Below the pieces are notes generated by a model, which did not search any database, was not told where the DNA came from, and saw only the letters and a program-made list of their open reading frames with translations. The position numbers were made by a program, and so were the translations under genes. A stretch of 32,000 nucleotides of DNA from Balneola sp. Lineage in GTDB: Bacteria; Bacteroidota; Rhodothermia; Balneolales; Balneolaceae. Shown piece by piece: positions 2,800 to 23,423 of the stretch; the stretch's first letter is position 1; each line of letters begins with the position of its first letter. The stretch is taken from positions 1 to 32,000 of the forward strand of contig PBJO01000022.1 in the NCBI GenBank assembly GCA_002720745.1. Direction: 5' to 3'.

Positions 2800-2816
2800 T
2801 TTTATATAAATCATAC

Positions 2817-2860
2817 TTTGAGGTGAGAGTGGAAGCTCTCATCTCAAATTTCTTTCTCTT
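2817..2860 (+). terminator. Rho-independent terminator after the T9SS cargo gene
   Basis: Arm tttgaggtgagag (2817-2829), loop tggaag, arm ctctcatctcaaa (2836-2848). The 13-bp stem has one G:U pair and is followed by the T-rich run tttctttctctt. Confidence 0.6.
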
Positions 2861-2910
2861 AATACTGTTTTCAATCAATAGAGATTCGAGTTTTTGAACG
2901 ATACTCAGTC

Positions 2911-7450: not shown

Positions 7451-7451
7451 A

Positions 7452-8507
7452 ATGTATTCAGAAGAAAGCTATATCATAAATACGTTTTATACACGAATAT
7501 TACCTGACAGTTTCTTTGCAACTATTGGGTTCATAGGTGTGATAGTATTGCTATTGCTGGCCTCTCCTAATTCGCTAAAAGCTCAAAAAAGTTTTGGGCA
7601 AGATCGAGCAGGTACGGAAGGTTTCCAGTTTACCAAAATTCCTGTTGATCCCCGTTCGGCTGCTATGGCAAATTCCAATATGGCCGACGCGATGGATGGC
7701 TCTAGTTTATATTGGAATCCAGCTCTATCTGCAGAAACGACTGGATCGGAAATTATGGTTAGTCATACAGAGTATGTAGCTGGCATTCAGCAAGATTATT
7801 TTAGTTATATCCAGCGGATAAATAGTTATGCAATCGGTGTTTCCGTTCAGTACTTAGGGTCTGGTGACATAATAGAAACTACCGAGTTCCAACCTTTTGG
7901 CACGGGCAGAATATTTTCAACCCATCACATGGCGGCTGGTCTTTCTATTGCGCAGAAGGTAACGGATTTGTTTAGTTATGGTCTAACATTTAAGTATCTG
8001 CTAGAGAAAGTAGAAGAAATTCAATATCAAACTGGTGCCATAGATTTTGGTTTTGCTTACAGAGTAGGAGATACAGGACTTCGATTCGCTGTGGGAATTA
8101 ATAACTTTGGTTTGGATGCGGCACCCGATGGTAATACTCAAAGAGAATCCTTAGAGGGAGTTTTAGAATTAGAACCAGAAACTAATATATCGTTGCCGAC
8201 TCGCTTCCATATTGGTGCTGCGTATGATTTGGTTGATAATCAGCTTAATAAAGTAACATTTACGGTCCAAATTACTAACCCGTCTGATAATGCTGAGCAA
8301 TTGAATATAGGAGCTGAGTATAGTTTCATGGATCAATTTCATCTACGAACGGGCTATGAATACGGGCAACTAGAACGTATAATACCTAGTCTAGGCGGTG
8401 GTATTTCTACTCCATTCGCAGGCCATATATTGAGAGCCGATTATGCGTATACACGTTTTGAACGTTTGGGGCAAATTCATCGGATAGGAGTGAGTATAAG
8501 TTTATGA
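7452..8507 (+). CDS. PorV/PorQ-family outer-membrane beta-barrel (PorV paralog)
   Basis: After the signal peptide (...SLKAQ) comes GTEGFQFTKIPVDPRSAAMANSNMADAMDGSSLYWNPALSA. This matches the characteristic PorV/LptO N-terminal motif (xFLxIxxxARxxxMG...DxSxxYWNPA). The start lies 1 nt after the receptor stop, and an ATGA overlap joins it to the next gene. Confidence 0.75.
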   Translation: MYSEESYIINTFYTRILPDSFFATIGFIGVIVLLLLASPNSLKAQKSFGQDRAGTEGFQFTKIPVDPRSAAMANSNMADAMDGSSLYWNPALSAETTGSEIMVSHTEYVAGIQQDYFSYIQRINSYAIGVSVQYLGSGDIIETTEFQPFGTGRIFSTHHMAAGLSIAQKVTDLFSYGLTFKYLLEKVEEIQYQTGAIDFGFAYRVGDTGLRFAVGINNFGLDAAPDGNTQRESLEGVLELEPETNISLPTRFHIGAAYDLVDNQLNKVTFTVQITNPSDNAEQLNIGAEYSFMDQFHLRTGYEYGQLERIIPSLGGGISTPFAGHILRADYAYTRFERLGQIHRIGVSISL

Positions 8508-9814
8508 GAATAAACCAAATTAAACCTTTGATGAGAGCTTCAGCAACTTCGTTATTGGTCTTTTTTATGATTATTCAGGGAGGATGCAGCGATTTATTCA
8601 ATACTAAGGACAATGCTGATACGGATGAAATTTTTGATGAGGGTAAAATTGATCCTCAACTAGAAAATATTGATGGTTATGCCCCGGTATTACCTTTTTG
8701 GGGTGGTTTTGATGCTCCTAATGATGTGCATGTTGGCTTTGATGAATTTGTATATGTAACTGATGCTAATGGGGTTCATTTATTAGATAGAGCGGATTTA
8801 TCTCCTAGAGTGACCATAGAATTGGAAGGAGCGGAAGCAGTAACACAAGATCGACTATTGAATGTATATGTGGCAGCTAGGATCGACACCATAATTGAGA
8901 GTATTGATCCAACAATTATATGGAATCTGCCTGCTGTGTTTAAAATAAAAAATATGAATGGAGCAGGGCCTATAAGTTTTGTAGACACTCTTATTTTCCC
9001 TTTTGATGACGCGAGTTTAAGCACTTCTGCCGCTCAAAATTCACGCTTAAACCGAAGCAGTAGAGCCAATTATGAAAAAGTGAATATCACAGGTCTCAGC
9101 GTACTTGCCGACAATACCTTATATGTCACGCGAACTGGACCATTTAATGAGACTACTCAGGTAGCAGCCCCAGATAATACGGTGTTAGAATTTCACCGGG
9201 TAATTGTAGATGGTATAAAGACTGATAAGATGCGTAATGTGCGTCAAATAAGAAGTCTCAGTCCAAATGTACCATCATTGCGTAGTGCTATTGGACTAAG
9301 TAGTATAGCTACTTTTGTAGCACCACCTCAACGTGATACTTACACCGATAGTCGGAGTTTTTTAATTACGCAATCACAAGCCAATGTAGAAATTCCTTTT
9401 CGTGTATTATGGATTGATGTGGTCGAGACAGTCGATGGCTTGATTTACCAACAGAATTCACAATTATTAGCTCAGGATACTTCACAAGCAAGTGGGTTTT
9501 TATACGAAACCAATAAATTTCTAAATCCTCAAGATGTAGCATTTGGTGGGGATGATGACGCATTTATCTTTGTAGTAGATAGTGAAGTGCATCGGTTATA
9601 CCAGTTTCAGTCTAATGGTCAAGAAGGCGTTCCTCCACCAGCAGGAGCGGATGATCAAACCCGTCAAATCACAGTCTCTTTTGGTGAGTTAGGTGCTGGC
9701 CCGAAAGAATTTAACATGCCTAGCGGAGTGGCATACTTTCGTCGTGTGGTCTACGTAGCAGACAAAGGTAATAATCGTATTTCTCGGTATAAGTTAACTT
9801 CTGATTTCGAATAA
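8504..9814 (+). CDS. Putative lipoprotein with NHL-repeat/beta-propeller-like segments
   Basis: Signal peptide with QGGC lipobox. NHL-like motifs: GVAYFRRVVYVADKGNNRISRYKL and EFVYVTDANGVHLLD. Confidence 0.65.
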   Translation: MRINQIKPLMRASATSLLVFFMIIQGGCSDLFNTKDNADTDEIFDEGKIDPQLENIDGYAPVLPFWGGFDAPNDVHVGFDEFVYVTDANGVHLLDRADLSPRVTIELEGAEAVTQDRLLNVYVAARIDTIIESIDPTIIWNLPAVFKIKNMNGAGPISFVDTLIFPFDDASLSTSAAQNSRLNRSSRANYEKVNITGLSVLADNTLYVTRTGPFNETTQVAAPDNTVLEFHRVIVDGIKTDKMRNVRQIRSLSPNVPSLRSAIGLSSIATFVAPPQRDTYTDSRSFLITQSQANVEIPFRVLWIDVVETVDGLIYQQNSQLLAQDTSQASGFLYETNKFLNPQDVAFGGDDDAFIFVVDSEVHRLYQFQSNGQEGVPPPAGADDQTRQITVSFGELGAGPKEFNMPSGVAYFRRVVYVADKGNNRISRYKLTSDFE

Positions 9815-13724: not shown

Positions 13725-14372
13725 TTGGTCATGAATAACTTTCCACTTATAGAAATGCTCACTTTTTTTCCCCGCTATTCAGAGGTGCATACTTTTGATT
13801 GGAGGCATCGTTATGTACGGAAGGTGCGTCAAATTAGGTCCTGTCATACTAAGATGCTGGGAGGAGTACCGCATTCATTTTTTAGTATTACAACTCAACA
13901 TGGGGAAGTCATGGATATGCGATTTAATCACGATGAATTACTCTGGGATATAGTAGCACTGCCTGGATCCGATTCACCTGTACATAGCGAAGATGAATCG
14001 CGTCTAGTTATTGATCGGGTATTGGTACACCAGCAACGACACAAACACCAGCCTTCGCTGGCTCACCGTATGTGCCCTATTCGTTTTGAGTGGCTTCCTT
14101 ATGCTCAATGTCTACGGCAGAGCCCTATTGAACATGCCAAAATAGACCGTATGCATCCGTATCGTTTTTTAAAAGGGAAAAACAGTTCCTATCAAATCCA
14201 CAGCGTAGAAACGCGTCATTTAGAAGATGTTATGGTTACTCGGCACTTACATTATATTGTTGAGGATACCGAACGTCGGTTCTATCATGTAGTATACATA
14301 CTGGATCAAGGAGATTGGCGCTTTATACAAGAAGTAGATGAGCAGTTCTTATTTCATCGGCCTGCACCTTAA
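13725..14372 (+). CDS. Hypothetical His/Arg-rich protein, divergent from the polymerase gene
   Basis: A 648-nt open frame in an AT-rich genome with no competing ORF. I recognise no motif in it. The TTG at 13725 is followed by an ATG at 13731, which is the more likely start (MNNFPLIE...). Confidence 0.5.
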   Translation: MVMNNFPLIEMLTFFPRYSEVHTFDWRHRYVRKVRQIRSCHTKMLGGVPHSFFSITTQHGEVMDMRFNHDELLWDIVALPGSDSPVHSEDESRLVIDRVLVHQQRHKHQPSLAHRMCPIRFEWLPYAQCLRQSPIEHAKIDRMHPYRFLKGKNSSYQIHSVETRHLEDVMVTRHLHYIVEDTERRFYHVVYILDQGDWRFIQEVDEQFLFHRPAP

Positions 14373-14392: not shown

Positions 14393-15109
14393 TTAGAATA
14401 AACGTAACTCGGGTTGAATAAGATGGGGGCTGTTGTTACGTACGTTCCCAACAGCGGTAGAAACGATGTGACTCTTTAGGCTATCGTCGGGGTAAGGATC
14501 CAATAGATAATTTAAACTATTAAAATCTTGTTTTGGATCCAACCATGTGCCCCATTCAGATGGATCTAAAAAAACTGGCATCCGATCATGAATGTTTTGC
14601 ATGGTTGTATTGGATTTTGTGGTTAAAATGGAAAACGAATAATAGGAACCCAAAGGACTTAGGGGAGAATAAAAACCAGCTGCAAAAAGAACAGAGTTAT
14701 TGGATGCTTGTATATAGTGGGGGCTTTTATTTCCTTTTGCACCTGACCACTCATAAAATCCATTCATAGGAATAAGGCATCGCTGCGTAGATACTGATCG
14801 CCACATAGATTTTTCTACAATTTCTTCGGATCGGGTATTAATGGGTAACAGGGGCCGACTTCCTGCCTTCGGTTTCCAACCCATAAATCCCCAGTGCATA
14901 AGAATCTGAATAAATTGGTTGGTACTGGTGTTAAGTGAAAGAATAACCGGCACAATATGGCTGGGTGCTATATTATAAGAAGGTAATGTGCGGCCAGTTT
15001 CTTGTAGACACTCATTTTTAAAAATCCCTTCTGTTTCGTTTGGTTGTGAAGATCCACTTAATGCGTCTATGGTATTAAAATCACTAAAAAGAGTGTATCG
15101 TCCACACAT
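14393..15109 (-). CDS. SOS-response-associated peptidase (SRAP/YedK/HMCES family), an abasic-site DNA-protein crosslinking protein
   Basis: N-terminal MCGRY (catalytic Cys2), INTRSEEI, RCLIPMNGFYEW and HDRMPVFL are canonical SRAP motifs. Confidence 0.9.
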   Translation of the reverse strand: MCGRYTLFSDFNTIDALSGSSQPNETEGIFKNECLQETGRTLPSYNIAPSHIVPVILSLNTSTNQFIQILMHWGFMGWKPKAGSRPLLPINTRSEEIVEKSMWRSVSTQRCLIPMNGFYEWSGAKGNKSPHYIQASNNSVLFAAGFYSPLSPLGSYYSFSILTTKSNTTMQNIHDRMPVFLDPSEWGTWLDPKQDFNSLNYLLDPYPDDSLKSHIVSTAVGNVRNNSPHLIQPELRLF

Positions 15110-15125
15110 TAAATAAAAAAGCAGT

Positions 15126-15788
15126 TTAGTAAAAAATCCGAAGTACGATTCGTCTATTTTTTGCGCGATTTTCTACGATGTTTTGTCCAAATTCGTCAGT
15201 ATGGGGTGCAGTAGGTAAGGGTTGTGTATCTGCATATCCTGATGCTTTGAGATTGGAAGCTTTGTATCCTTGATTAACAAGAAATTTAACTACCTCAGAG
15301 GCTCTAGCAACAGAAAGTTCCCAGTTAGAAGGAAATCTTAGCGTATTTATAGGAACATTATCTGTATGCCCTTCGATATCTACCTTAAAATTGTAAAATG
15401 ATAATCCATTTAGAGCGTCAGATACTTTACGAATAATACCCTCGCCTGAGGGTAACAATTCGGCGCCACCTGAGATATAGAGTGAACTACTATTAAATGT
15501 CATCACAATCTCTTTGGTAGTCAAATCAATGTTAACTAAGCCTTGATTACGTTCAGGGGTTAGAACAGAATCAAGATCAGCTTTAATTTCTGCTAATGGT
15601 GTTTTTTGTATTTCAGTACCCGTGACTTCTGATCGCATACCTTCTTTCATTTGGTCCCAAAGGGCTTGATCAGGGGTACTTGAAGCAATTAGAATAGCAA
15701 AAAATGCAAGCAGTAAAGTGATCATATCACTGTATGTAAGAAGATATTCAAGATCTTCTTCTGCTTCTTCGATTTCATTAGCGCTCAT
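15126..15788 (-). CDS. motB: MotB-family stator subunit with an OmpA-like peptidoglycan-binding domain
   Basis: N-terminal YLLTYSDMITLLLAFFAIL holds the conserved channel Asp (D21) within the single TM. The C-terminus carries GHTDNVPI...NWELSVARASEVVKFL...NRRIVLRI, the OmpA_C-like signature. Confidence 0.85.
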   Translation of the reverse strand: MSANEIEEAEEDLEYLLTYSDMITLLLAFFAILIASSTPDQALWDQMKEGMRSEVTGTEIQKTPLAEIKADLDSVLTPERNQGLVNIDLTTKEIVMTFNSSSLYISGGAELLPSGEGIIRKVSDALNGLSFYNFKVDIEGHTDNVPINTLRFPSNWELSVARASEVVKFLVNQGYKASNLKASGYADTQPLPTAPHTDEFGQNIVENRAKNRRIVLRIFY

Positions 15789-15824
15789 AACAAACTTATT
15801 TAAATTGTTATTCTACTAGGATTT

Positions 15825-16643
15825 TTATTCTTTGTCTTTACTTTTACCATCTTTCTTTTTGAAGTCACGCTGTAAAAAAGTGCTAAGTTTATCCTGAACA
15901 TAAAATGCTGTTTTCTTTTCATTAATTAAAATGATTCCTTCGAGCATGAAAGTTTCTCTAAAACGATTTATAGAGGCTGAATTTTTAATTTTCTCAGCAA
16001 CAGGATAAAAAATGAATCGAGAGAGTATAATTCCATATAGTGTAGTCATTAAAGCAGCTGCAAGTCCAGGCCCCATGGCAGAAGGATCGTCCAAGTTACT
16101 TAGCATATCAATTAAACCAAACAATGTACCAAACATACCAAAGGCAGGGGCTGCTCCACCCATCGCTCGAAGAACATCAACAACAACCATTTGCCTAAAA
16201 AAATTTTCTTGGATATGATTAGTTCCGAATTGACGAATGTCGTCACTTGAATAATTGGTACTTAAAAGAGAAAAAAGATATCCTTCTAAGTACCCACCTC
16301 GTTCTTCTTCTAATCTATCTAATGCATTAACTCTATCTTTTCTGATTTCATCATTCCATTCAACAATTGATTCAAAATCTCTTTGGAGAGATTTTTTGTT
16401 TGCACCTGCTTGACTAAAAAAGTATCTCACCCCAGCTAAAGCTTTATTTACATACCTTGATTGAAACGTTATATAAGAGGCCATAAGAACCCCACCTATA
16501 ACAATAACCATACTAGGTATATTCACAAATTGGGTGTTAATGCCATCAGTATAAGTTGTGGTTTTGATTGTCTCCAATACACCAAAAATTATCATTGCTA
16601 AACTAATGACTGTACCGATCATTGAGCCAATTGAAAATTTCAT
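15825..16643 (-). CDS. motA: MotA-family proton-channel stator subunit (MotA/TolQ/ExbB superfamily)
   Basis: Four predicted TM helices with a long TM2-TM3 cytoplasmic loop. GGAAPAFGMFGTLFGLIDML...GLAAALMTTLYGIILSRFIFYPVAEKI matches the MotA TM3/TM4 signature, including both conserved prolines. Confidence 0.85.
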   Translation of the reverse strand: MKFSIGSMIGTVISLAMIIFGVLETIKTTTYTDGINTQFVNIPSMVIVIGGVLMASYITFQSRYVNKALAGVRYFFSQAGANKKSLQRDFESIVEWNDEIRKDRVNALDRLEEERGGYLEGYLFSLLSTNYSSDDIRQFGTNHIQENFFRQMVVVDVLRAMGGAAPAFGMFGTLFGLIDMLSNLDDPSAMGPGLAAALMTTLYGIILSRFIFYPVAEKIKNSASINRFRETFMLEGIILINEKKTAFYVQDKLSTFLQRDFKKKDGKSKDKE

Positions 16644-16646
16644 TTG

Positions 16647-17255
16647 TTACTGTCCTCCACGGATCTCTTGTATTAAAGTTTCTAATTCAGGGATACTAGG
16701 GATTGGAATATTTGGATCCATTTGGACTGCTCGATTCCAATTAGCGCGGGCTGCCGTAATATTTTCTAACATAAAAAAAACAGTTCCTTTCAGGGCATAG
16801 GCGTCTGCGGTCTCTTGTATTTCAAGGGTTTTGTCAACAAATTCTAATGACTGTCGATATTCTCCCAAATAGAATAAATCTTGGGCTTTTCGAAAGTTAG
16901 TAAGTAGAGACTGTATATCCCTAGCTCTATTTTGTACAAGACTAGAGTCGATTACTACGATGGAATCTTTATCGACCGGTCTCATACCTCTTAAATCTAA
17001 ATAAAATTGTTCTCTAGACGGGTCTAGTTTAATCTGAATATTTGAACTTTCATTTAAATAATTAACAGTAATGACCTCTTTGGAAGGTGAATTATCTGAA
17101 TCAATAGAACTCGTTATACGAGGTGAATTTGAAAGTGCTCTTGGATTTGGATTCGTAGGCTGACTATTTGAACTGCTTGATATAGACTGCGGTGTTGCAC
17201 ATCCAATATGCATAACGATAAAAAGCACAATTATTGTTGTGAATTTTTTTTCCAT
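16647..17255 (-). CDS. TPR-containing lipoprotein (periplasmic)
   Basis: The likely start is the Met at 17255 (MEKKFTTIIVLFIVMHIGCATP, lipobox HIGC). The ORF-track start at 17297 would overlap the upstream gene. A Ser/Pro/Asn-rich linker is followed by C-terminal TPR-like helices (AQDLFYLGEYRQSLEFVDKTLEIQETADAYALKG...ANWNRAVQMDPN). Confidence 0.7.
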   Translation of the reverse strand: MEKKFTTIIVLFIVMHIGCATPQSISSSSNSQPTNPNPRALSNSPRITSSIDSDNSPSKEVITVNYLNESSNIQIKLDPSREQFYLDLRGMRPVDKDSIVVIDSSLVQNRARDIQSLLTNFRKAQDLFYLGEYRQSLEFVDKTLEIQETADAYALKGTVFFMLENITAARANWNRAVQMDPNIPIPSIPELETLIQEIRGGQ

Positions 17256-17268
17256 GAAAAATAGGCTA

Positions 17269-18447
17269 TTAGAATCGAATAACTGCATGAAATCCAAATC
17301 CAGTTTGTTTATAAGTTAAACGGTCTTTATTTGCTAATTTTATTGTTTCGCCAGCAAGCATGAGATTACCAAAAACAGACAATCCAATATTTTTACTTAA
17401 ATTAAATTGCAGTCCAGGTTCTAACACAAACATTTCGCCTTCTTTATTCCCAAGTGGAAATTGCGTATTTAATTTGGAATAAAATACTACACGATATTCG
17501 TCTATATCTGCAACTTTTTCTGATATAGCTTGATAATAGATTAATCCCAATTCGAATAGCGAAATATCGAATAATGTTTGTTCTCTGTCTTGAGATCTAA
17601 CTATATGATAACCAGCACTAAAACCAATATAAGAACTATTTTCTAAATCTAAAGGCTGTCTGTAGGTAAATGTTATACTGAAATCAGTAAGAGCTTGTCT
17701 TAACAGAGTATCAGCTTGATGTGAGAATGCGTTTGCTGTGGAATCAGCACCAGCACCAGCACCAGTACCAGTACCAGTAGTGTCGTTACTTGTTGTGGAT
17801 GTTGCATATTTATTTCGGTACCAACTATCAGAGGCTTTATTACTAATGCCAAAAGTAACTAGTTTTTGTGTTCCTTGATTTAAAGTAGGTAAAACTATTG
17901 GAGGGTTTGAAATAAACGAATTACTCCATATCACTTCGCGTGATTGAGGATTCATTACACGGATACTAATAACTAGTCCTTCAGGTTCTCTTCGTTGTAA
18001 ACTTAACTCAACAAGACCTTGGACACCATATTTATAGGCAATTTCTTCTAGCATCTCTGGGGATACATCTGCTAGGGAACGTCCTTGCATATTTAGAATT
18101 TGTAGAGTAGAATCGTTCCCTACAATCTTAAGTTTATCGTTTGGTTCTAATTCAGGAGGTGATAATACGGTAAGCCCAGCATAATTGCGCATAGAATACT
18201 CGATCTCTGCACGTATGTATTCTACCTCTTCATTTGTGAATCTAAGTGCTGAATAATTAATTTTATAGATAGCTATACGACGCACTGTGGCGGGAAAATC
18301 AGCTAAATTTGGATTTAACTGTTCTTGGATTTTTTCAATCATGTACGGATCACCTTGTTCATAACTAAAAATCTGAGCAGCGACATAGTAAGAATCAGTC
18401 AAAGCTCCAAGAATGAAAACGATAAGTAGATTGAATAATTTTTTCAT
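17269..18447 (-). CDS. Outer-membrane protein: N-terminal periplasmic alpha/beta domain, Thr/Gly/Ala linker and C-terminal beta-barrel
   Basis: SPI-type signal peptide (…YYVAAQ). The C-terminal half shows an alternating amphipathic pattern and ends FGFHAVIRF, with the terminal Phe typical of OMPs. The N-domain (IAIYKINY...GVQGLVELSLQRREPEGLVISIRVMNPQSREVIWSNSF) resembles the FlgO/CsgG/TolB-N-like fold pattern. Confidence 0.65.
   Translation of the reverse strand: MKKLFNLLIVFILGALTDSYYVAAQIFSYEQGDPYMIEKIQEQLNPNLADFPATVRRIAIYKINYSALRFTNEEVEYIRAEIEYSMRNYAGLTVLSPPELEPNDKLKIVGNDSTLQILNMQGRSLADVSPEMLEEIAYKYGVQGLVELSLQRREPEGLVISIRVMNPQSREVIWSNSFISNPPIVLPTLNQGTQKLVTFGISNKASDSWYRNKYATSTTSNDTTGTGTGAGAGADSTANAFSHQADTLLRQALTDFSITFTYRQPLDLENSSYIGFSAGYHIVRSQDREQTLFDISLFELGLIYYQAISEKVADIDEYRVVFYSKLNTQFPLGNKEGEMFVLEPGLQFNLSKNIGLSVFGNLMLAGETIKLANKDRLTYKQTGFGFHAVIRF
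17745..17780. repeat. In-frame hexanucleotide tandem tract: (CAGCAC)x3, (CAGTAC)x2, CAGTAG
   Basis: Read directly at 17745-17780. On the coding (minus) strand it encodes the TGTGTGAGAGA linker of the OM protein. Confidence 0.9.
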
Positions 18448-18450
18448 TAT

Positions 18451-20385
18451 CTATGCGTCTGTTTTCATTTTTCGACGTACTGCATAAAGAATAGTTTTTT
18501 GGGCATCTTCAACCTCTGAATTAGTCGCTTCAGAAGGCATTTCTATTTCACTGAGTATGAGTTGTTGATCTCGTTTGGTACGGGATTTTAAAACTTTCTC
18601 TCGAACTGCTGCAGGAGCAGTACGTAGGGCTAAAATAAGTGTTTCAGAGGGTATTTCGTCAAGTGCTGATTTTATTAATTCAATTTTTACTTTAGGTAAA
18701 TCATCAAAACCGATAAAAAACTTTTTAATTTTTTTAGCTAATTCTAAATCTTGTTCTGCAATTGAAGCAACGTATGCATCTTGTTCAGACAGTGGCATAG
18801 TTTCAATTGTATTTAGTATAGTTTCTACACCATCTGCTGCAACGTATTTCATGTCTGAGATTTCTAATGCTTTGTTAGAGAAATGAGAAGCAACTTTTTT
18901 ATAAACTGAAATGGGTATGTTGTTAATTTTTCCCATCTTGAGAAGGATTGATATACGCTTATCATCATCCATTTTTTGTAAAACAACTCCAGCTCTTTCA
19001 CCTGCAACCTGTGCTAATAAAATTGAAATCATTTCCTCAGACTCATCTTTCATTAAATGAAGAATTTGTTGATCTGTTAACTGATCGACAAAGTCGAATA
19101 GGCTGTTTTGCGACCCTTCAGCATCTGTAGATGCTTTATATGTCGTAATGCTGCTTCGGAAATTTTCTGTTTCACTTATCCTTTCTTCCAAAGTAAGGGC
19201 GTCAAAATTATTAAGACCAAAATTAATCATCTCAAAAGTATTGGAACTTATATGAGGCTTTAACATTTTCAACAGCGTCTCGTCTACACTTATAAGGCTT
19301 TTTACCGCTTTCGATACACCCTGTTCTTCATCATTTTCAATCCATTCGCTTATTATATTTGCAACGATTTTTGGTTTACTAATACACATATTTGCAATGA
19401 AGGTTTTGTCTCCTTCGAATTTTGCCATTTCTCTTACAGTAGGCCCTTTTTGAGGTTCTGGTGTTTTAAGTTCTGTAATGATAGGTTGAGAATTTTGTAA
19501 TACAGGTGTAGTTTGTCCCATGTCCTGCATAATTTGTTCTTCATCTTTAGCTTTGGTTTTTCTTGAAATTGCCATAAATAATGCCAGTAAGAATAAGATT
19601 CCTAATGCAATAATTATAAATATTAGATGCTCAGGATTATTCCAATCAATTCCTAAGAACATCTTTTTTTCTCTTTCTGCAACTACTGTTTGTATTATTG
19701 TGTCTGGCGTAAGTGGGAACATACTATTCTCGATAACCTCTTCTCTTTCATTATCTTCTTCTTGCTCTTCTTCAATATCATTAATTTCGTTGTTTGTATC
19801 TAACAACGCCGCGGGATTTGGTGCAGTAGATTTTTTAACATCTTGTGCAATAGCTCGGTTATTGCGCGGAAATACTTTTCTGCTAACCGATATTATGTCT
19901 CCACGAAATTCATCGGCATTTGCAATTAATATAACGGCTTCTTCCACAAAATCTACATCCTCATTACTATAAGAGGTGTCAACGAGTACTTTTATATTGA
20001 GTCTAGTAAGTTGGAAGCGAGCATCAAATCCTGAGGCTCTCAAACTATCCTGATTAGATGACCTATTCTTTTGTATATTTGGTGGGATAAAAGGTAATCC
20101 TGGTAAATTTTCAATTTTAATGTCTTCTTGTGGCTGTATAATCTCATATCCTTTAGGGACTAAGATTCGCTCCAATGTCGCCTTAACATCTACAATAAAT
20201 GTACCTTCTCGATAATAATCTGAGAGTGCATTATCTAAAATTATTTCATAGTACCGTTCATATTTAGCAGTTTCTTCTTGGGCATCTGCAGACAATGTTT
20301 GTGCAGGCAAAATTTGCCCGATTACAATAATACTCTGAAGCGCAATAATGCCCGTAAGAGCAAGAAATTTAAAGTATCCTGCCAT
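18451..20385 (-). CDS. Membrane protein fusing a FliF-like periplasmic ring-forming region to a complete FliG-like (N/M/C) cytoplasmic region
   Basis: TM1/signal at aa 5-27. The periplasmic region includes RLNIKVLVDTSYSNEDVDFVEEAVILIANADEFRGDIISVSRKVF, which resembles the FliF/YscJ C-terminal periplasmic motif. An acidic linker follows, then TM2 at aa 253-273 (nt 19567-19629). The cytoplasmic ~330 aa carry ADGVETILNTIE (FliG-M GGxxxAAxILN-like), KKFFIGFDDLPKV (the FliG MFVFEDL box, nt 18697-18720), LILALRTAPAAVREKVLKSRTKRDQQLILSEIE and VEDAQKTILYAVRRKM (FliG-C). Confidence 0.75.
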   Translation of the reverse strand: MAGYFKFLALTGIIALQSIIVIGQILPAQTLSADAQEETAKYERYYEIILDNALSDYYREGTFIVDVKATLERILVPKGYEIIQPQEDIKIENLPGLPFIPPNIQKNRSSNQDSLRASGFDARFQLTRLNIKVLVDTSYSNEDVDFVEEAVILIANADEFRGDIISVSRKVFPRNNRAIAQDVKKSTAPNPAALLDTNNEINDIEEEQEEDNEREEVIENSMFPLTPDTIIQTVVAEREKKMFLGIDWNNPEHLIFIIIALGILFLLALFMAISRKTKAKDEEQIMQDMGQTTPVLQNSQPIITELKTPEPQKGPTVREMAKFEGDKTFIANMCISKPKIVANIISEWIENDEEQGVSKAVKSLISVDETLLKMLKPHISSNTFEMINFGLNNFDALTLEERISETENFRSSITTYKASTDAEGSQNSLFDFVDQLTDQQILHLMKDESEEMISILLAQVAGERAGVVLQKMDDDKRISILLKMGKINNIPISVYKKVASHFSNKALEISDMKYVAADGVETILNTIETMPLSEQDAYVASIAEQDLELAKKIKKFFIGFDDLPKVKIELIKSALDEIPSETLILALRTAPAAVREKVLKSRTKRDQQLILSEIEMPSEATNSEVEDAQKTILYAVRRKMKTDA

Positions 20386-20454
20386 GATTTAACCCCCGCA
20401 GAAGGTAATTTATTTAAGCCTAAGTATAGATGATGATATGTACATCGCTAAGTA

Positions 20455-20470
20455 TGCGAAAATTTTTCCA
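20455..20470 (-). promoter_or_regulatory. Candidate sigma-54 (-24/-12) promoter for the FliFG-MotAB operon
   Basis: The minus strand reads TGGAAAAATTTTCGCA. The GG and GC dinucleotides sit at the canonical spacing of TGGCAC-N5-TTGCA, ~70 nt upstream of the ATG at 20385. Only 8 of 12 defined consensus positions match, so this is weak. Confidence 0.25.
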
Positions 20471-20652
20471 GTTTTCCACATTATTGAATAAAATAAGTAG
20501 AATATTGATTTAATGATAATATTCTTCAAAATTATTGATGTTTAAATACTTAGACGAGAATAAATCTCACACAGTGTCATTATTTATCTACTTATCCACA
20601 CTCTAGACCACAAAAGAGCACTCAAGTTATGTATGCACTGAACGGGATTTTA

Positions 20653-21081
20653 CTAAGATGAAAAAGCCAAAGCGTAAATTTTCATTTGCTTAACCATAGA
20701 AGCCAAGCCATTAGCTCTCGTTGGTGAAAGATGTTCATGCATCCCAATTTCAGTTATGAAGGTAGGCTCTGTTGAAAGAATGGCACTTGGGGTCTGATGG
20801 CTATATAGGTGGACCATCAATGCTACCAGTCCCTTTGTGATAGCGGCGTCACTATCAGCCTCGAAAATGATTTTACCATCACTGAATTCGGCATGCAGCC
20901 ATACTTGACTTTGACAGCCCTTTACTATGTTATTTTCTACCTTTTTGGAGCTATCAAGATGGGGTAGCTTAGAACCAAATTTAATTATGTACTTATAGCG
21001 CTCAGTCCAATCTTCAAGCAAACTGAATTCTCTGACAATTCTATTTTGGATGTCTACAATACTTACCTTTGACTGCGACAT
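20653..21081 (-). CDS. sufE: SufE-family sulfur acceptor protein
   Basis: ~140 aa with IVKGCQSQVWLHAEF, the SufE active-site Cys motif. The tail RANGLASMVKQMK is SufE-like. Confidence 0.85.
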   Translation of the reverse strand: MSQSKVSIVDIQNRIVREFSLLEDWTERYKYIIKFGSKLPHLDSSKKVENNIVKGCQSQVWLHAEFSDGKIIFEADSDAAITKGLVALMVHLYSHQTPSAILSTEPTFITEIGMHEHLSPTRANGLASMVKQMKIYALAFSS

Positions 21082-21089
21082 ATCGACGC

Positions 21090-21968
21090 TTAAATCTCTT
21101 TTAACTCTAACTTACCGACTGATTTTACTGATGAAATTTTATTGTTATTATCATCTTTTATAGGACTAAATGACTGATATATTGTCTGGTAATCATCAGA
21201 ATCTGGGATTTTATAGCGAAATAATTCAGATACCGTTTTCCCTTCAAACGCATTACTTAGAGCGTGCTGTATCATGGCAACGTCGTCTGGGTGTATAACA
21301 CTACCTAATCCTTTTTCAAAAATATCATCAGAGCTACATCCTGTGACTTCTTCGAAGGCTTCATTTATGTATTTACAATTAAAGCCTGATTCATCTTTAG
21401 AAAATTTCAGAATAAACTCTTCTCGTTGCTTAAGTAGCGTACCAAAATCAGTATTAAAAATTGCCTTTGCTGTTTCTTTTTTCTCTGTAACATCTCGCTG
21501 ATACGATACCCAATGAGTCACCTCTCCTTGAGTATTCATTAAGGGATGAATATCCCACTGGTTGATAAACTCTGAACCGTCTTTACGATAATTAATGGTA
21601 TGACCAAAAAAGGCTTGACCTTCAATTAATCGTCTTTTTAGCCGTTCTAATATAGATCGGTCTGTTTTTTCTCCTTGGAGTATACGAGGTGTTTTTCCTA
21701 GTACTTCTTGTTTTGTGTACCCAGTCATACGGGTGAAGCCGTCATTTACGTAAATAATTTTTGGTCCTGGTTTCACTAAACTAAGCTCGGTGATAATGAT
21801 GGAATCATAATCGTTTCGAATCGCGCTTTCTAACAGCTCCAATTGATGTTTTAGTACAGCAATTTCATTTGCTTGTGACTTAAAAGCATCTTCTAGCCTT
21901 ATTTGTGCTTCAGCGTCTTTTGTAATTTTCTTGATGTCGTCTATTTCAAATGATTTATTGTACTTCAT
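21090..21968 (-). CDS. Dual-PAS protein with no output domain. The first PAS is LOV-like but lacks the adduct-forming Cys.
   Basis: aa 52-160 align by eye to LOV domains: IIYVNDGFTRMTGYTKQEVLGKTPRILQGEKTD...INYRKDGSEFINQWDIHP...WVSYQRDVTEKK. GKTPRILQG (nt 21672-21698) replaces the canonical GxNCRFLQG. An N-terminal coiled coil and a second PAS occupy the rest. Confidence 0.75.
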   Translation of the reverse strand: MKYNKSFEIDDIKKITKDAEAQIRLEDAFKSQANEIAVLKHQLELLESAIRNDYDSIIITELSLVKPGPKIIYVNDGFTRMTGYTKQEVLGKTPRILQGEKTDRSILERLKRRLIEGQAFFGHTINYRKDGSEFINQWDIHPLMNTQGEVTHWVSYQRDVTEKKETAKAIFNTDFGTLLKQREEFILKFSKDESGFNCKYINEAFEEVTGCSSDDIFEKGLGSVIHPDDVAMIQHALSNAFEGKTVSELFRYKIPDSDDYQTIYQSFSPIKDDNNNKISSVKSVGKLELKEI

Positions 21969-22101
21969 AGGGCCACTTTGATCTCAAGCAGTTTACATAT
22001 TAGTAGTCAGCACATAAACGACTAATTATGATCAATCATTCCACAACTTCAAACAAATAATTAATGCTCTATATGAGTTTATATGGGTACAATTGCAGAA
22101 T

Positions 22102-22129
22102 AAAAAAAGGGGGACTATTGCCCCCCTTT
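22102..22129 (-). terminator. Rho-independent terminator ~285 nt downstream of meaB
   Basis: The minus strand reads AAAGGGGGGCAATAGTCCCCCTTTTTTTA: a G/C stem (GGGGG/CCCCC plus A:T extension), a ~7-nt loop, then a T7 run (22102-22108). Confidence 0.7.
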
Positions 22130-22412
22130 CCTCACTCACTCATCGAAGTAGCAGCTTAGCTTAGCTAAACTGCACATTCTTTAATATTCAATTATAATCA
22201 GCTGTTACATATATACAAATTGAATTTTGTCAATCGCTCAAACACATTTATTATTATTGCAGAAAAAAAACATTTGTAGCTAACAGGTCATAAGTGATTA
22301 TGCTAATATAATATTGTAAGCGCTTTTTTGCTAATATAAAGTGTGTTTTTATACATATTTTGTTTATCAAGTGCTATTCTAAACAGGCTAAAACCTTAAA
22401 ATGAACGGTTTA

Positions 22413-23423
22413 TCAATTATTAAGTAGTGAGCGTGTGAACTCTTGAGCTGCTTCTAGGATACTTATCTTACCAGATTGCATCTCTTTTAAGAGCATGTTT
22501 TTGAGAGGAGTAGAGTGTTTAGCTGAATGTAAATATTGAAGCCAATAAAATTCACTTAATTTTTTGAACCATTGTTTTTGTTGCATTTGTCTTTTGTGCT
22601 CGTAGTATCCAATTGATGTAGCTTGTTCCAGGAATTTAGTTACAGCTTGCCAACTTTCAGAGATTCCAGTCTCTTCGACGGAACTAACCCCAATGATTGG
22701 TACTTGGTAATTCTTTAAGGAATGAGTGATCAGTTGAGATGTAGATCGTAATGATTGAAGGGTTTGTTGAGCTAGATATTTAGTGGCCCCGTCCATTTTA
22801 TTCACTAGTAAGACATCAGCAAATTCTAATACTCCTCGTTTAATTCCTTGTAATTCATCTCCACTACCGGGTTGATTGAGTAAAACAAAGCAGTCAACCA
22901 TATCCGCTACTGCACCCTCATTCTGACCGATTCCGACGGTTTCTATGAGGATGACGCTATAACCAGCTAATTCGCATAAGCTCATGATTGATTGAGTTGC
23001 ATGCGTGACTCCACCAAGAACTTGTTGGGAAGGTGAAGGGCGTATAAAGGCATTAACTTGGGTACTTAATCGTTCCATTCTAATTTTATCACCCAGAATA
23101 GAACCACCAGAAACCCGGCTACTAGGATCTACAGCTAACACGCATACTCGGAATCCTAAGGAGAGTAGATGCATTCCTAAAGATTCTATGTAGCTACTTT
23201 TTCCTACCCCAGGAGGTCCGGATATCCCTACTCTAATTGTTGGAGTATGACCATTTTTATTAAGTCGTTTTAAGGCTCCATCAAGTAGGTCCCGAGCCCG
23301 GTTTTGATCTTCTATACAGGTGCTTTCTACGAGTGTGATAGCCCGAGAAAGGCTTCGTATTTGCCCTTTTTCAATGGAATTTATCCATTTTGAAATAGCA
23401 GTATGAACACTATTTTTTCTCAT
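22413..23423 (-). CDS. meaB: Methylmalonyl-CoA mutase-associated GTPase (G3E family, MeaB/ArgK)
   Basis: P-loop GISGPPGVGKSS, VLAVDPSS, ILIETVGIGQNE and VNKMDG are MeaB hallmarks. The start lies 2 nt after the mutase stop. Confidence 0.9.
   Translation of the reverse strand: MRKNSVHTAISKWINSIEKGQIRSLSRAITLVESTCIEDQNRARDLLDGALKRLNKNGHTPTIRVGISGPPGVGKSSYIESLGMHLLSLGFRVCVLAVDPSSRVSGGSILGDKIRMERLSTQVNAFIRPSPSQQVLGGVTHATQSIMSLCELAGYSVILIETVGIGQNEGAVADMVDCFVLLNQPGSGDELQGIKRGVLEFADVLLVNKMDGATKYLAQQTLQSLRSTSQLITHSLKNYQVPIIGVSSVEETGISESWQAVTKFLEQATSIGYYEHKRQMQQKQWFKKLSEFYWLQYLHSAKHSTPLKNMLLKEMQSGKISILEAAQEFTRSLLNN

What the first reader, a model, noticed from the sequence alone, without database searches (positions are those of the whole stretch)
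15126..20385. Self-contained rotor + stator + envelope-scaffold operon with no other flagellar genes: a candidate flagellum-independent MotAB/FliG machine
Five co-directional minus-strand genes are packed with gaps of only 3, 13, 3 and 36 nt.
- A 644-aa FliF-like/FliG-like fusion.
- A 392-aa outer-membrane beta-barrel with a periplasmic N-domain.
- A TPR lipoprotein.
- MotA, with four TM helices and both conserved prolines.
- MotB, with the channel Asp and an OmpA-like PG-binding domain.

The flanking genes are unrelated: sufE and the PAS gene upstream, SRAP and the UmuC-like gene downstream. The 32 kb holds no T3SS export gate (FlhA/B, FliPQR), no FliM/N, and no rod, hook, ring or filament gene.

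The FliG C-terminal domain is the established torque-generating partner of MotA. To my knowledge none of the other 5:2 motor families uses a FliG-like partner (ExbBD-TonB, TolQR-TolA, GldLM, AglRQS, ZorAB). The gene set covers inner membrane, peptidoglycan, periplasm and outer membrane. It therefore predicts a PMF-driven rotary or power-stroke device that spans the envelope but lacks an axial filament. What it drives is unknown. The host shows T9SS signatures (FCB group).
Basis: partly seen in the sequence, partly recalled or inferred. Interest (0 to 1): 0.92.

Follow-up and report, generated by a model that had tools for sequence, protein, structure and literature searches.

The report
Flagellar-type rotor and stator without flagellum
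A marine Balneola genome carries a conserved five-gene operon that pairs a natural fusion of the flagellar ring proteins FliF and FliG with a MotA/MotB ion-driven stator and two outer-envelope proteins, and no other flagellar genes lie nearby, so it looks like an undescribed motor that works without a flagellum.

Summary
Five tightly packed minus-strand genes (15126-20385) encode:
- a 644-aa protein: signal peptide, FliF RBM3-like periplasmic domain, one transmembrane (TM) helix, then a complete FliG (N, M and C domains);
- a 392-aa outer-membrane protein: a TolB-N/LpoB-like periplasmic domain plus an 8-strand barrel;
- a TPR lipoprotein;
- a PomA/MotA-type stator A subunit;
- a MotB with channel Asp, plug and OmpA domain.

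The FliG torque-helix Arg is nearly invariant across the family. The FliM-binding EHPQR motif is lost.

The same five genes, in the same order, occur in 27 Balneolaceae species genomes. They also occur in a Fibrobacterales MAG, an "Elusimicrobia" bin and about nine long metagenome contigs, always among housekeeping genes. All five genes are under purifying selection (dN/dS 0.06-0.15).

A published per-genome table lists FliG and MotA (MotB in one) but no FlhA/B, FliPQR, FliF, FliM/N, rod, hook or filament proteins for two Balneolaceae genomes. I found no paper describing this cassette.

Best reading: a flagellum-independent rotor-stator machine spanning the envelope. Rotation and output are inferred, not shown. 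I could not scan this organism's whole genome.

The parts
18451..20385 (-). 644-aa FliF(RBM3)-FliG fusion, the putative rotor subunit
   Evidence: ORF. FliG_C, FliG_M and FliG_N. PDB alignment to Salmonella FliG residues 8-318. Orthologs at 56-96% identity in Balneolaceae. 74 of 123 50%-cluster representatives found with the N-terminal half have the same full architecture.
20299..20385 (-). N-terminal hydrophobic segment (aa 1-29), probably a cleavable signal peptide ending ...PAQ
   Evidence: Read directly from the sequence. Relatives end in AQ-type motifs. The hydrophobicity is weaker than that of the central TM helix. Cleavage is inferred.
19831..20298 (-). Periplasmic FliF RBM3-like domain (aa 30-185) with family motifs LPGLP and VDxxY..D..F...L...A.LD..RGD..I....FP
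   Evidence: With the family profile A3, FliF chains are 5 of the 6 PDB hits (best E 0.003). YscJ_FliF_C matches 36 of 43 members; P0299 scores 24.8 bits against a cutoff of 23.8. Foldseek of the low-confidence model also finds FliF RBM3/collar (6sd1, prob 0.89, E 0.6). Motifs.
19636..19830 (-). Acidic, indel-rich low-complexity periplasmic linker (aa 186-250)
   Evidence: Alignment A1. Lowest family-wide conservation, 0.11. pLDDT below 50.
19561..19635 (-). Single transmembrane helix (aa 251-275)
   Evidence: Hydropathy scan finds a strong TM at this relative position in nearly all family members. Helix 251-274 in the model.
19111..19410 (-). FliG_N-like domain (aa 326-425), joined directly to the TM helix by a ~50-aa linker
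   Evidence: phmmer alignment starts at Salmonella FliG residue 8. TIGR00207 covers aa 345-638. pLDDT 84-89.
18859..19071 (-). FliG middle domain (aa 439-509). The EHPQR FliM-binding motif is replaced by E-S-E-E.
   Evidence: FliG_M E 3e-8. Salmonella 'DEHPQI' aligns to 'DESEEM'. Family-wide, E is kept (60 of 75) but H-P-Q is not.
18463..18765 (-). FliG C-terminal (torque) domain (aa 541-641)
   Evidence: FliG_C E 8e-19. R605 = FliG R281 (R in 70 and K in 4 of 75 family members), E613 = D289, R588 = K264. D288 becomes S612 and R297 is not kept.
17269..18447 (-). 392-aa outer-membrane protein: signal peptide, periplasmic alpha/beta domain (aa ~37-180), 8-strand beta-barrel (aa ~195-392), C-terminal Phe
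   Evidence: No Pfam, NCBIfam or PDB sequence hit. AlphaFold model pLDDT 72. Foldseek finds TolB N-domain, LpoB-C and GNA1162 for the N-domain, and OmpA, Ail and OmpW for the barrel. Orthologs sit in the same operon position in distant lineages (HMM E 6e-65 to 1e-9).
16647..17255 (-). 202-aa TPR lipoprotein (lipobox ...MHIG|C, Ser/Pro-rich linker, TPR repeats). An alternative TTG start lies at 17297.
   Evidence: TPR_1 and TPR_2. The lipobox Cys is kept in 5 of 6 divergent lineages. It always sits between the OMP gene and motA.
15825..16643 (-). 272-aa flagellar-type stator A subunit (MotA/PomA/MotP-like)
   Evidence: MotA_ExbB E 7e-20. MotP 135 bits and PomA 123 bits, against TolQ 20 bits. 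Best PDB hit is Vibrio PomA 8brd, E 8e-29. Prolines and TTLYG conserved. No ZorA hit.
15126..15788 (-). 220-aa stator B subunit (MotB-like): channel Asp21, plug, short linker, OmpA-type peptidoglycan-binding domain
   Evidence: MotB_plug E 4e-11 and OmpA E 1e-13. MotD model 138 bits. PDB MotB 6ysf E 1e-18 with 'YSDMITLLL' aligned to 'FSDTITLLL'.
20386..20652 (-). 267-nt AT-rich region upstream of the operon; presumed promoter region (not demonstrated)
   Evidence: Sequence. The consensus promoter scan shows no excess over shuffles. No Rfam element.

Best explanation
The operon encodes a self-contained flagellar-type rotor-stator machine that works without a flagellum.

Shown by sequence:
- One polypeptide joins a periplasmic FliF RBM3-like ring-building domain, a single TM helix and a complete cytoplasmic FliG.
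- The adjacent MotA/MotB pair is of the flagellar (PomAB-like) kind, with the channel Asp, plug, prolines and peptidoglycan anchor.
- An outer-membrane barrel protein with a TolB-N/LpoB-like periplasmic domain, and a TPR lipoprotein, are obligate operon partners across phyla.

Inferred:
- The fusion oligomerises through its RBM3-like domain into a ring in the inner membrane. This ring is an MS-ring and upper C-ring in one protein, with FliF:FliG fixed at 1:1.
- Peptidoglycan-anchored MotA5B2 units use the ion-motive force to push on the FliG_C torque helix (conserved Arg) and turn the ring.
- With no FliM/FliN there is no CheY switch. With no export gate, rod or hook there is no axial drive shaft.
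- The periplasmic face of the ring therefore engages the TPR lipoprotein and the periplasmic domain of the OM barrel protein. Torque or force is delivered to the outer envelope rather than to a filament.

The most likely output is mechanical work on the outer membrane or peptidoglycan: Tol-Pal-like tethering or trafficking, or movement of surface components. This last step is the least supported.
For: - Domain content.
- Torque-interface conservation: FliG R281-equivalent is R in 70 and K in 4 of 75 family members. PomA R88/K89/E96 equivalents are kept in the window protein.
- Loss of the FliM-binding EHPQR motif.
- Five-gene order conserved in 27 Balneolaceae loci with variable flanks, in L037, in a Fibrobacterales MAG and in an 'Elusimicrobia' bin.
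- Every sufficiently long metagenome contig has the same order; 9 sets are complete.
- The second gene is orthologous across these lineages.
- Variant neighbourhoods still combine the fusion with MotAB, OM barrel or TPR and peptidoglycan-binding modules.
- Purifying selection on all five genes, dN/dS 0.06-0.15, like neighbouring SufE and SRAP.
- No flagellar Pfam family within +/-10 kb in the 11 Pfam-annotated loci or in the 32-kb window.
- Published Table S2 of PMC12199754: two Balneolaceae genomes have FliG and MotA (MotB in one) but no export gate, FliF, FliM/N, rod, hook or flagellin.
- Engineered FliF-FliG fusions assemble into rings (PMC11481574, PMC10941966; PDB 8z4d).
Against: - No direct evidence of ring formation, rotation or any phenotype.
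- The RBM3 homology is weak: E 0.003 with a family profile, mostly the C-terminal beta-alpha-beta. The AlphaFold model of that domain is poor (pLDDT below 60).
- I could not scan the whole genome of this organism or of any cassette-bearing genome for a flagellar regulon.
- The literature on Balneola motility conflicts. Hahnke 2016 (PMC5167729) cites flagella in B. vulgaris. PMC9909488 and PMC9027524 report no flagellar genes or proteins.
- The MotA charged residues are variable in distant relatives. Only 3 of 5 classical FliG charged residues are kept.
- How a ring without a rod could pass torque to an OM protein is unknown.
- In one distant locus (L033) no MotAB lies in the 8 kb downstream.
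Confidence: 0.62

Rival explanations
1. The operon is an accessory or displaced rotor-stator set of a canonical flagellum encoded elsewhere in the same genome. It would be comparable to extra FliG paralogs or dual stator sets in other bacteria. The fusion would co-assemble with, or replace, FliF and FliG in a normal basal body.
For: FliG, MotA and MotB are clearly of flagellar type. Some Balneolaceae (Aliifodinibius) carry nearly complete flagellar KO sets. Flagella were reported for B. vulgaris according to PMC5167729. Whole genomes could not be scanned here.
Against: - The fusion has only RBM3. It lacks RBM1/RBM2, which house the export gate, and it lacks the FliM-binding EHPQR motif.
- The operon partners (OM barrel, TPR lipoprotein) have no flagellar homologs.
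- The cassette recurs among housekeeping genes in Fibrobacterales and other lineages, with no flagellar neighbour.
- Two Balneolaceae genomes have FliG and MotA (MotB in one) but no other core flagellar protein.
- The Aliifodinibius flagellar set includes its own fliF, fliG and motAB KOs.
Confidence: 0.1
2. A non-rotary envelope tether or gated ion channel. The FliG domain would serve only as a docking or plug-release partner that activates MotAB ion flow, or would anchor it at a site. The OM barrel, TPR lipoprotein and OmpA domain would staple the outer membrane, peptidoglycan and inner membrane together. This would be a Tol-Pal analogue in lineages where tol-pal is not recognisable.
For: - TolB-N-like fold in the 392-aa protein.
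- A TPR lipoprotein resembling the lipidated CpoB described for non-proteobacteria, and the reported lack of tol-pal loci in Bacteroidetes (PMC12204202).
- Peptidoglycan-binding modules (OmpA, SPOR, LysM) recur around family members.
- Short family members keep the RBM3-like domain, TM helix and TPR partner without FliG or MotAB.
Against: - The MotA cytoplasmic domain and the FliG torque-helix Arg are conserved as in torque-generating motors.
- MotA scores 135 bits to MotP against 20 bits to TolQ.
- There is no TolA- or TonB-like transducer and no beta-propeller.
- A 5:2 motor is intrinsically rotary according to solved structures (established knowledge; PMC9389320).
- This rival overlaps with the 'output' part of the main explanation and does not exclude it.
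Confidence: 0.15
3. A decaying remnant of an ancestral flagellum with no present function.
For: PMC9909488 proposes that the Balneolaceae ancestor was flagellated and that genes were progressively lost.
Against: - dN/dS is 0.06-0.15 for all five genes, like housekeeping neighbours.
- All reading frames are intact.
- Gene order is conserved across phylum-level distances.
- Two of the five genes have no flagellar counterpart.
Confidence: 0.02
4. A Zorya-like anti-phage defence system built on a MotAB-like motor.
For: MotB matches ZorB models in PADLOC (63 bits). Zorya is the best-known non-flagellar use of MotAB-like motors.
Against: - No ZorA hit for MotA and no ZorC/D-like genes.
- MotB scores far higher to flagellar MotD/MotB models (138 bits).
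- The operon sits at a stable core-genome position across Balneolaceae, not in a variable island.
- There is no long ZorA tail; MotA is 272 aa.
Confidence: 0.02

Closest known systems
Bacterial flagellar motor core (FliF MS-ring, FliG upper C-ring, MotAB/PomAB stator)
   Same: - All three FliG domains.
- The FliG torque-helix Arg (R281 equivalent).
- A FliF RBM3-like periplasmic domain directly before a TM helix.
- A PomA/MotP-type MotA with both prolines.
- MotB with Asp, plug and OmpA domain.
- The 1:1 FliF:FliG relation is hard-wired by the fusion.
   Different: - No RBM1/RBM2 and no EHPQR motif.
- No FliM/FliN, export gate, rod, hook, L/P rings or filament genes nearby (or, per PMC12199754 Table S2, in two Balneolaceae genomes).
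- A probable cleaved signal peptide instead of FliF TM1.
- Obligate partners are an OM barrel protein and a TPR lipoprotein that have no flagellar homologs.
Engineered FliF-FliG fusion proteins of Salmonella and Vibrio (PDB 8z4d; PMC11481574; PMC10941966)
   Same: One polypeptide carries both the MS-ring and the FliG parts, and forms rings in membranes. This shows that the architecture is physically workable.
   Different: Those are laboratory constructs of full-length FliF (about 560-580 aa) plus FliG inside a complete flagellum. This is a natural, conserved gene with a truncated FliF part and no flagellum.
Tol-Pal system (TolQRA, TolB, Pal, CpoB)
   Same: - A 5:2 ion-driven inner-membrane motor.
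- A periplasmic TolB-N-type fold.
- An OmpA-type peptidoglycan-binding domain.
- A TPR (CpoB-like, lipidated) protein.
- All are encoded in one operon and together span the envelope.
   Different: - The motor is of the flagellar clade, not TolQR (135 against 20 bits).
- The partner is a FliG ring, not a TolA/TonB-type extended transducer.
- There is no beta-propeller and no Pal lipoprotein.
Other non-flagellar 5:2 motor systems (ExbBD-TonB, GldLM/T9SS, AglRQS, ZorAB)
   Same: All use a MotAB-family ion-driven motor to power an envelope process other than flagellar rotation.
   Different: None of them is known to use a FliG or FliF partner. My literature searches found none. The MotA here retains the large flagellar torque-generating cytoplasmic domain.

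Membership tests
Canonical bacterial flagellar motor | FliG with N, M and C domains | tested here: met
   Pfam FliG_C and FliG_M above cutoff, FliG_N weak. phmmer alignment to Salmonella FliG residues 8-318. Foldseek top hits are FliG.
Canonical bacterial flagellar motor | FliG charged torque-helix residues (K264, R281, D288, D289, R297 in E. coli numbering) | tested here: inconclusive
   R588, R605 and E613 keep 3 of the 5. D288 becomes Ser and R297 is lost. The R281 equivalent is near-invariant family-wide.
Canonical bacterial flagellar motor | FliG EHPQR motif that binds FliM, with FliM/FliN present | tested here: not met
   'EHPQ' aligns to 'ESEE'. H-P-Q is not conserved in 75 family members. 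There is no FliM/FliN in the window or in the annotated loci.
Canonical bacterial flagellar motor | Full-length FliF with RBM1, RBM2 and RBM3 between two TM helices | tested here: not met
   Only an RBM3-like domain of about 155 aa is present. There is no YscJ_FliF (PF01514) hit. The N-terminal segment looks like a cleavable signal peptide.
Canonical bacterial flagellar motor | Type III export gate, rod, hook and filament genes in the genome | not testable with these tools
   They are absent from the 32-kb window and from +/-10 kb in the annotated loci. The published Table S2 of PMC12199754 lists none for two Balneolaceae genomes. The genome of this organism could not be scanned.
Flagellar-type stator (MotAB/PomAB, 'FIT' clade of PMC12505986) | MotA with 4 TM helices, a large cytoplasmic torque-generating domain, conserved prolines and a Thr ring; MotB with Asp, plug and peptidoglycan-binding domain | tested here: met
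   NCBIfam MotP/PomA 135/123 bits, below the equivalog cutoffs, against TolQ/ExbB at 16-20 bits. PomA 8brd E 8e-29 over aa 33-258. Motifs. MotB. No formal phylogeny was made.
Tol-Pal system | TolQ/TolR-type motor, TolA transducer, TolB with beta-propeller, Pal lipoprotein | tested here: not met
   TolQ model scores only 19.7 bits. There is no TolA-like gene. The 392-aa protein has a TolB-N-like fold, but a barrel instead of a propeller.
Zorya defence system | ZorA with a long cytoplasmic tail, ZorB, plus ZorC/D or ZorE/F/G effectors | tested here: not met
   PADLOC gives no ZorA hit and no other Zor component. Only generic ZorB (MotB-like) hits at 63 bits or less.
T9SS/gliding motor GldLM (PorLM) | GldL/PorL and GldM/PorM proteins | tested here: not met
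   No GldL/GldM or PorL/PorM family hit for any of the five proteins in Pfam or NCBIfam. T9SS cargo and a PorV-like gene exist elsewhere in the window.

The most novel reading that the evidence does not exclude
This would be a previously unrecognised class of ion-driven envelope machine. It would be a free-standing FliF/FliG ring, turned by flagellar-type MotAB stators. It would deliver torque to the outer membrane through a dedicated OM barrel protein and a TPR lipoprotein, with no type III export apparatus, rod or filament. It is spread across Balneolaceae, Fibrobacterales and other uncultured lineages. It would be the first non-flagellar use of the FliG-MotA torque interface. It could be either an exapted flagellar core or a surviving relative of the pre-flagellar rotor-stator module.
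Probability: 0.4. Interest if true: 0.95.

Novelty: new variant of a known kind. Interest (0 to 1): 0.82.

Why it matters
FliG-MotA is the textbook torque-generating interface. It is thought to be exclusive to flagella; every other 5:2 motor family uses a different partner.

[quoted passage not shown]' That question is raised explicitly in PMC12199754, which noted rotor proteins in non-motile genomes.

It offers a minimal five-protein system for studying rotor-stator mechanics without the roughly 40 other flagellar proteins. It bears on how the flagellum was assembled in evolution: a rotor-stator module with or without the secretion system. It may also reveal how FCB-group bacteria that lack a recognisable Tol-Pal system energise their outer envelope.

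A cultured strain offers a route to experiments. Balneola sp. EhC07 (PMC4945805) is reported to carry FliG and MotAB but no other flagellar genes.

Tried and rejected
- **Single-sequence Pfam/NCBIfam for FliF.** No YscJ_FliF hit. Homology emerged only with a family profile.
- **AlphaFold of the 644-aa protein with 20 close homologs.** The N-domain was too uncertain to use (pLDDT 59 overall). The Foldseek hits to FliF RBM3 are therefore only supportive.
- **Third large protein search, using the N-domain profile.** It returned only 13 fragments and no taxonomy.
- **Cluster look-ups.** They gave organism names for only two distant members. Most distant loci therefore have no taxonomy.
- **Metagenome scan with the 44-sequence alignment.** It failed for lack of conserved stretches. 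A 7-sequence subfamily worked.
- **FlgO/FlgT-type relation of the 392-aa protein.** No Pfam or PDB sequence hit even with the family alignment. Only the generic TolB-N/LpoB fold was found.
- **Defence-system reading.** Rejected with PADLOC.
- **Regulatory RNA or an obvious promoter or terminator.** Nothing above background.
- **Literature searches for a prior description.** Nine searches, combining FliG, MotAB, non-flagellar, FliG-like, FliF-FliG fusion, Balneolaceae, Fibrobacter and strain names, found none. Only open-access papers and bioRxiv were searchable.
- **Whole-genome test for a flagellar regulon.** Not possible.

Full report
**What is in the sequence**

The gaps between them are 3, 13, 3 and 36 nt.

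The rest of the 32-kb window holds ordinary genes. On one side are T9SS-type cargo, a TonB-dependent receptor, a PorV-like gene, folP, cdaA, a Y-family polymerase and SRAP. On the other side are sufE, a PAS protein, meaB, methylmalonyl-CoA mutase, smc, frr, pyrH, tsf and rpsB. No flagellar family appears among them. There are no tRNA genes and no Rfam hits.

The 392-aa protein is 100% identical to an NCBI entry from a 'Balneola sp.' MAG. The host is therefore a marine Balneolaceae bacterium.

**The 644-aa protein**

Its C-terminal half is a complete FliG.
- Pfam gives FliG_C (E 8e-19) and FliG_M (E 3e-8). TIGR00207 covers aa 345-638.
- phmmer against PDB aligns aa 326-642 with Salmonella FliG residues 8-318.
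- In that alignment, R605 matches the torque-helix R281, E613 matches D289 and R588 matches K264. D288 is Ser and R297 is not kept.
- The FliM-binding 'EHPQ' is 'ESEE'.

Its N-terminal half has no hit as a single sequence. A full HMMER search of 1.84 billion cluster representatives with aa 1-345 found 123 relatives. Of these, 74 have the same overall architecture: N-domain, one strong TM helix, then FliG, at 570-730 aa.

A profile of 43 diverse N-domains then found FliF.
- FliF chains are 5 of its 6 PDB hits (best E 0.003). The match is aligned to the last part of RBM3, ending in the '...RGD..V....F' stretch that precedes FliF's second TM helix.
- Pfam YscJ_FliF_C matches 36 of the 43 at E<=1, best 1.6e-6. 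One family member passes Pfam's gathering score.
- Foldseek on the low-confidence AlphaFold model lists FliF RBM3/collar structures after FliG (probability 0.75-0.89, non-significant E).

So the protein is a probable cleavable signal peptide, an RBM3-like domain, an acidic linker, a TM helix and then FliG. It is a natural, truncated FliF-FliG fusion.

Across 75 full-length family members the R281 equivalent is R in 70 and K in 4. The Glu of EHPQR is kept, but H-P-Q is not.

**The stator**

MotA scores 135 and 123 bits to the MotP and PomA models, against 20 and 16 bits to TolQ and ExbB. Its best solved relative is Vibrio PomA (E 8e-29). The equivalents of PomA R88/K89/E96 are retained. Both prolines and the TTLYG motif are conserved in every lineage examined, although the charged residues vary in distant relatives.

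MotB has the channel Asp (D21), the plug and an OmpA-type domain. PADLOC gives no ZorA hit.

**The two envelope partners**

The 392-aa protein has no family in Pfam or NCBIfam and no PDB hit by sequence, even as a 26-member alignment. Its AlphaFold model (pLDDT 72) shows a signal peptide, an alpha/beta periplasmic domain and an 8-strand barrel ending in Phe. Foldseek matches the TolB N-domain, LpoB-C and GNA1162 for the first domain, and OmpA, Ail and OmpW for the barrel.

The 202-aa protein has a lipobox Cys, conserved in 5 of 6 lineages, and TPR repeats.

**Conservation**

- *Balneolaceae.* The fusion has orthologs at 54-96% identity in 29 Balneolaceae loci from the species-genome collection. 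All 27 loci that are not cut by a contig end carry the five genes in the same order. SRAP, SufE and PAS come and go in the flanks.
- *Other lineages.* The same five-gene order is found in a 36%-identical relative next to T9SS cargo (L037). It is also found in a 'Fibrobacterales bacterium' MAG and in 'Elusimicrobia bacterium ADurb.Bin231'. Every sufficiently long contig among 15 loci from JGI metagenomes has it too; nine sets are complete.
- *Orthology of the second gene.* An HMM confirms it, with E 6e-65 to 1e-9.
- *Variant contexts.* These keep the same logic. One is an OM-barrel-plus-TPR protein, the fusion, a small TPR-like protein, MotA and MotB (L034). Another is MotA and MotB, DUF4402-type small proteins, a 1218-aa protein with TPR and OmpA domains, the fusion, and a SPOR protein (L035).
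- *One exception.* In L033, no MotAB lies in the 8 kb downstream.
- *Short family members.* About twenty keep only the RBM3-like domain and a C-terminal TM helix, some with an N-terminal LysM. They are again followed by a TPR protein.
- *Selection.* dN/dS between the window and a 77%-identical relative is 0.06-0.15 for all five genes, like SufE (0.05) and SRAP (0.15).

**Is there a flagellum elsewhere in the genome?**

I could not scan whole genomes. The indirect evidence is consistent.
- None of the 11 loci with precomputed Pfam annotation has a flagellar gene within 10 kb.
- The fusion lacks what a canonical basal body needs from FliF (RBM1/RBM2) and from FliG (the FliM site).
- Supplementary Table S2 of PMC12199754 lists hits for 'Balneola sp. 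strain EhC07' and 'Balneolaceae bacterium strain ECT2AJA-110-D'. [quoted passage not shown]
- That is the background set also seen in non-flagellated Bacteroides, plus FliG and FlgO. It contains no FlhA/B, FliPQR, FliF, FliM/N, rod, hook or flagellin.
- I could not verify that their FliG is this fusion.
- PMC9909488 reports no flagellar-assembly genes in Balneola, Gracilimonas, Rhodohalobacter and Fodinibius salinus. It reports a nearly full set, including its own fliF, fliG and motAB, in Aliifodinibius.
- Against this, PMC5167729 cites flagella for B. vulgaris, and PMC9027524 says the opposite.

**Mechanism**

*Shown:* the parts list, its topology signals, the conservation of the torque-helix Arg and of the stator's channel and plug, and the obligate genetic linkage of the five genes.

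*Inferred:*
- The RBM3-like domain builds a ring, as RBM3 does in the S-ring. Engineered FliF-FliG fusions do form rings (PMC11481574, PMC10941966; PDB 8z4d).
- Peptidoglycan-anchored MotA5B2 units turn that ring.
- Without FliM/FliN there is no chemotactic switching.
- Without a rod, the periplasmic face of the ring must act on the TPR lipoprotein and the OM barrel protein.
- The output is unknown. The partner set is a TolB-N-like fold, a lipidated TPR protein and OmpA/SPOR/LysM modules. FCB-group bacteria reportedly lack tol-pal loci (PMC12204202). Both points favour work on the outer membrane or peptidoglycan. Movement of surface components is an alternative.

**Comparison and novelty**

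The cassette works like the core of a flagellar motor but fails membership of the canonical flagellum on three tested features: full FliF, EHPQR with FliM/N, and neighbouring export or axial genes. It is not Tol-Pal, Zorya, GldLM or AglRQS.

Recent surveys of MotAB relatives and of flagellar loss do not describe it. PMC12505986 does not mention it. PMC12199754 only remarks that rotor proteins in non-motile genomes 'could have an alternative function'. Nine literature searches found no description.

I rate it a new variant of a known kind, with a substantial chance (about 0.4) that it is a new class of envelope machine.

Noticed in passing
Loci L038 8001-8765, L039 3633-4601; proteins P0264-P0347 (short members): About twenty 240-385-aa proteins carry the same FliF RBM3-like domain plus a C-terminal TM helix but no FliG. 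Several have an N-terminal LysM domain. They are preceded by a ~1000-aa protein and followed by a small TPR protein, which suggests a wider family of membrane-anchored RBM3-like ring or scaffold proteins in FCB-type bacteria.
   Followed up: partly
L035 2393-6184 and L038 1215-4710: Runs of four to five small (~175-280 aa) secreted proteins lie next to RBM3-like family members, and in L035 next to MotAB as well. Some hit DUF4402 weakly. They might be fibre or pilin-like subunits associated with the system in some lineages.
   Followed up: partly
window 13725-14372 (+): A 215-aa ORF with a TTG start and no Pfam family lies between the Y-family polymerase gene and the SRAP gene. An ORF of similar size is called at the same place in L001 (16000-16662). 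It may be a conserved unknown partner of this SOS-type gene pair.
   Followed up: no
window 103-9814 (+): A co-directional block holds a T9SS C-terminal-sorting-domain protein (898 aa), a 515-aa unknown, a 1000-aa TonB-dependent-receptor-like protein with CarboxypepD_reg and Plug domains, a PorV-like barrel (351 aa) and an NHL-repeat protein. It is a possible T9SS cargo/shuttle module.
   Followed up: no
window 21090-21968 (-) and relatives: A 292-aa protein made of two PAS domains with no output domain travels with sufE upstream of the operon in most Balneolaceae loci. It lies 0.3 to about 7 kb from the fusion gene. No regulatory link is shown.
   Followed up: partly
L001 1286-4806: In the 2.39-Mb contig of GCA_038144155.1 the smc gene is called as three consecutive pieces (78, 521 and 599 aa), against one 1172-aa ORF in the window. 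These are probably frameshift errors of a long-read assembly.
   Followed up: no
window 15001-23000: G+C content is 34-37% across the operon and the genes upstream of it, against 38-42% in the left third of the window. The low-GC stretch extends beyond the operon, so it does not mark it as foreign.
   Followed up: no
PMC12199754 Supplementary Table S2: The two Balneolaceae genomes in that table also score for 'FlgO', which the neighbouring Bacteroides entries lack. I found no FlgO-type sequence signal in the 392-aa protein, so which gene gave that hit is unknown.
   Followed up: partly
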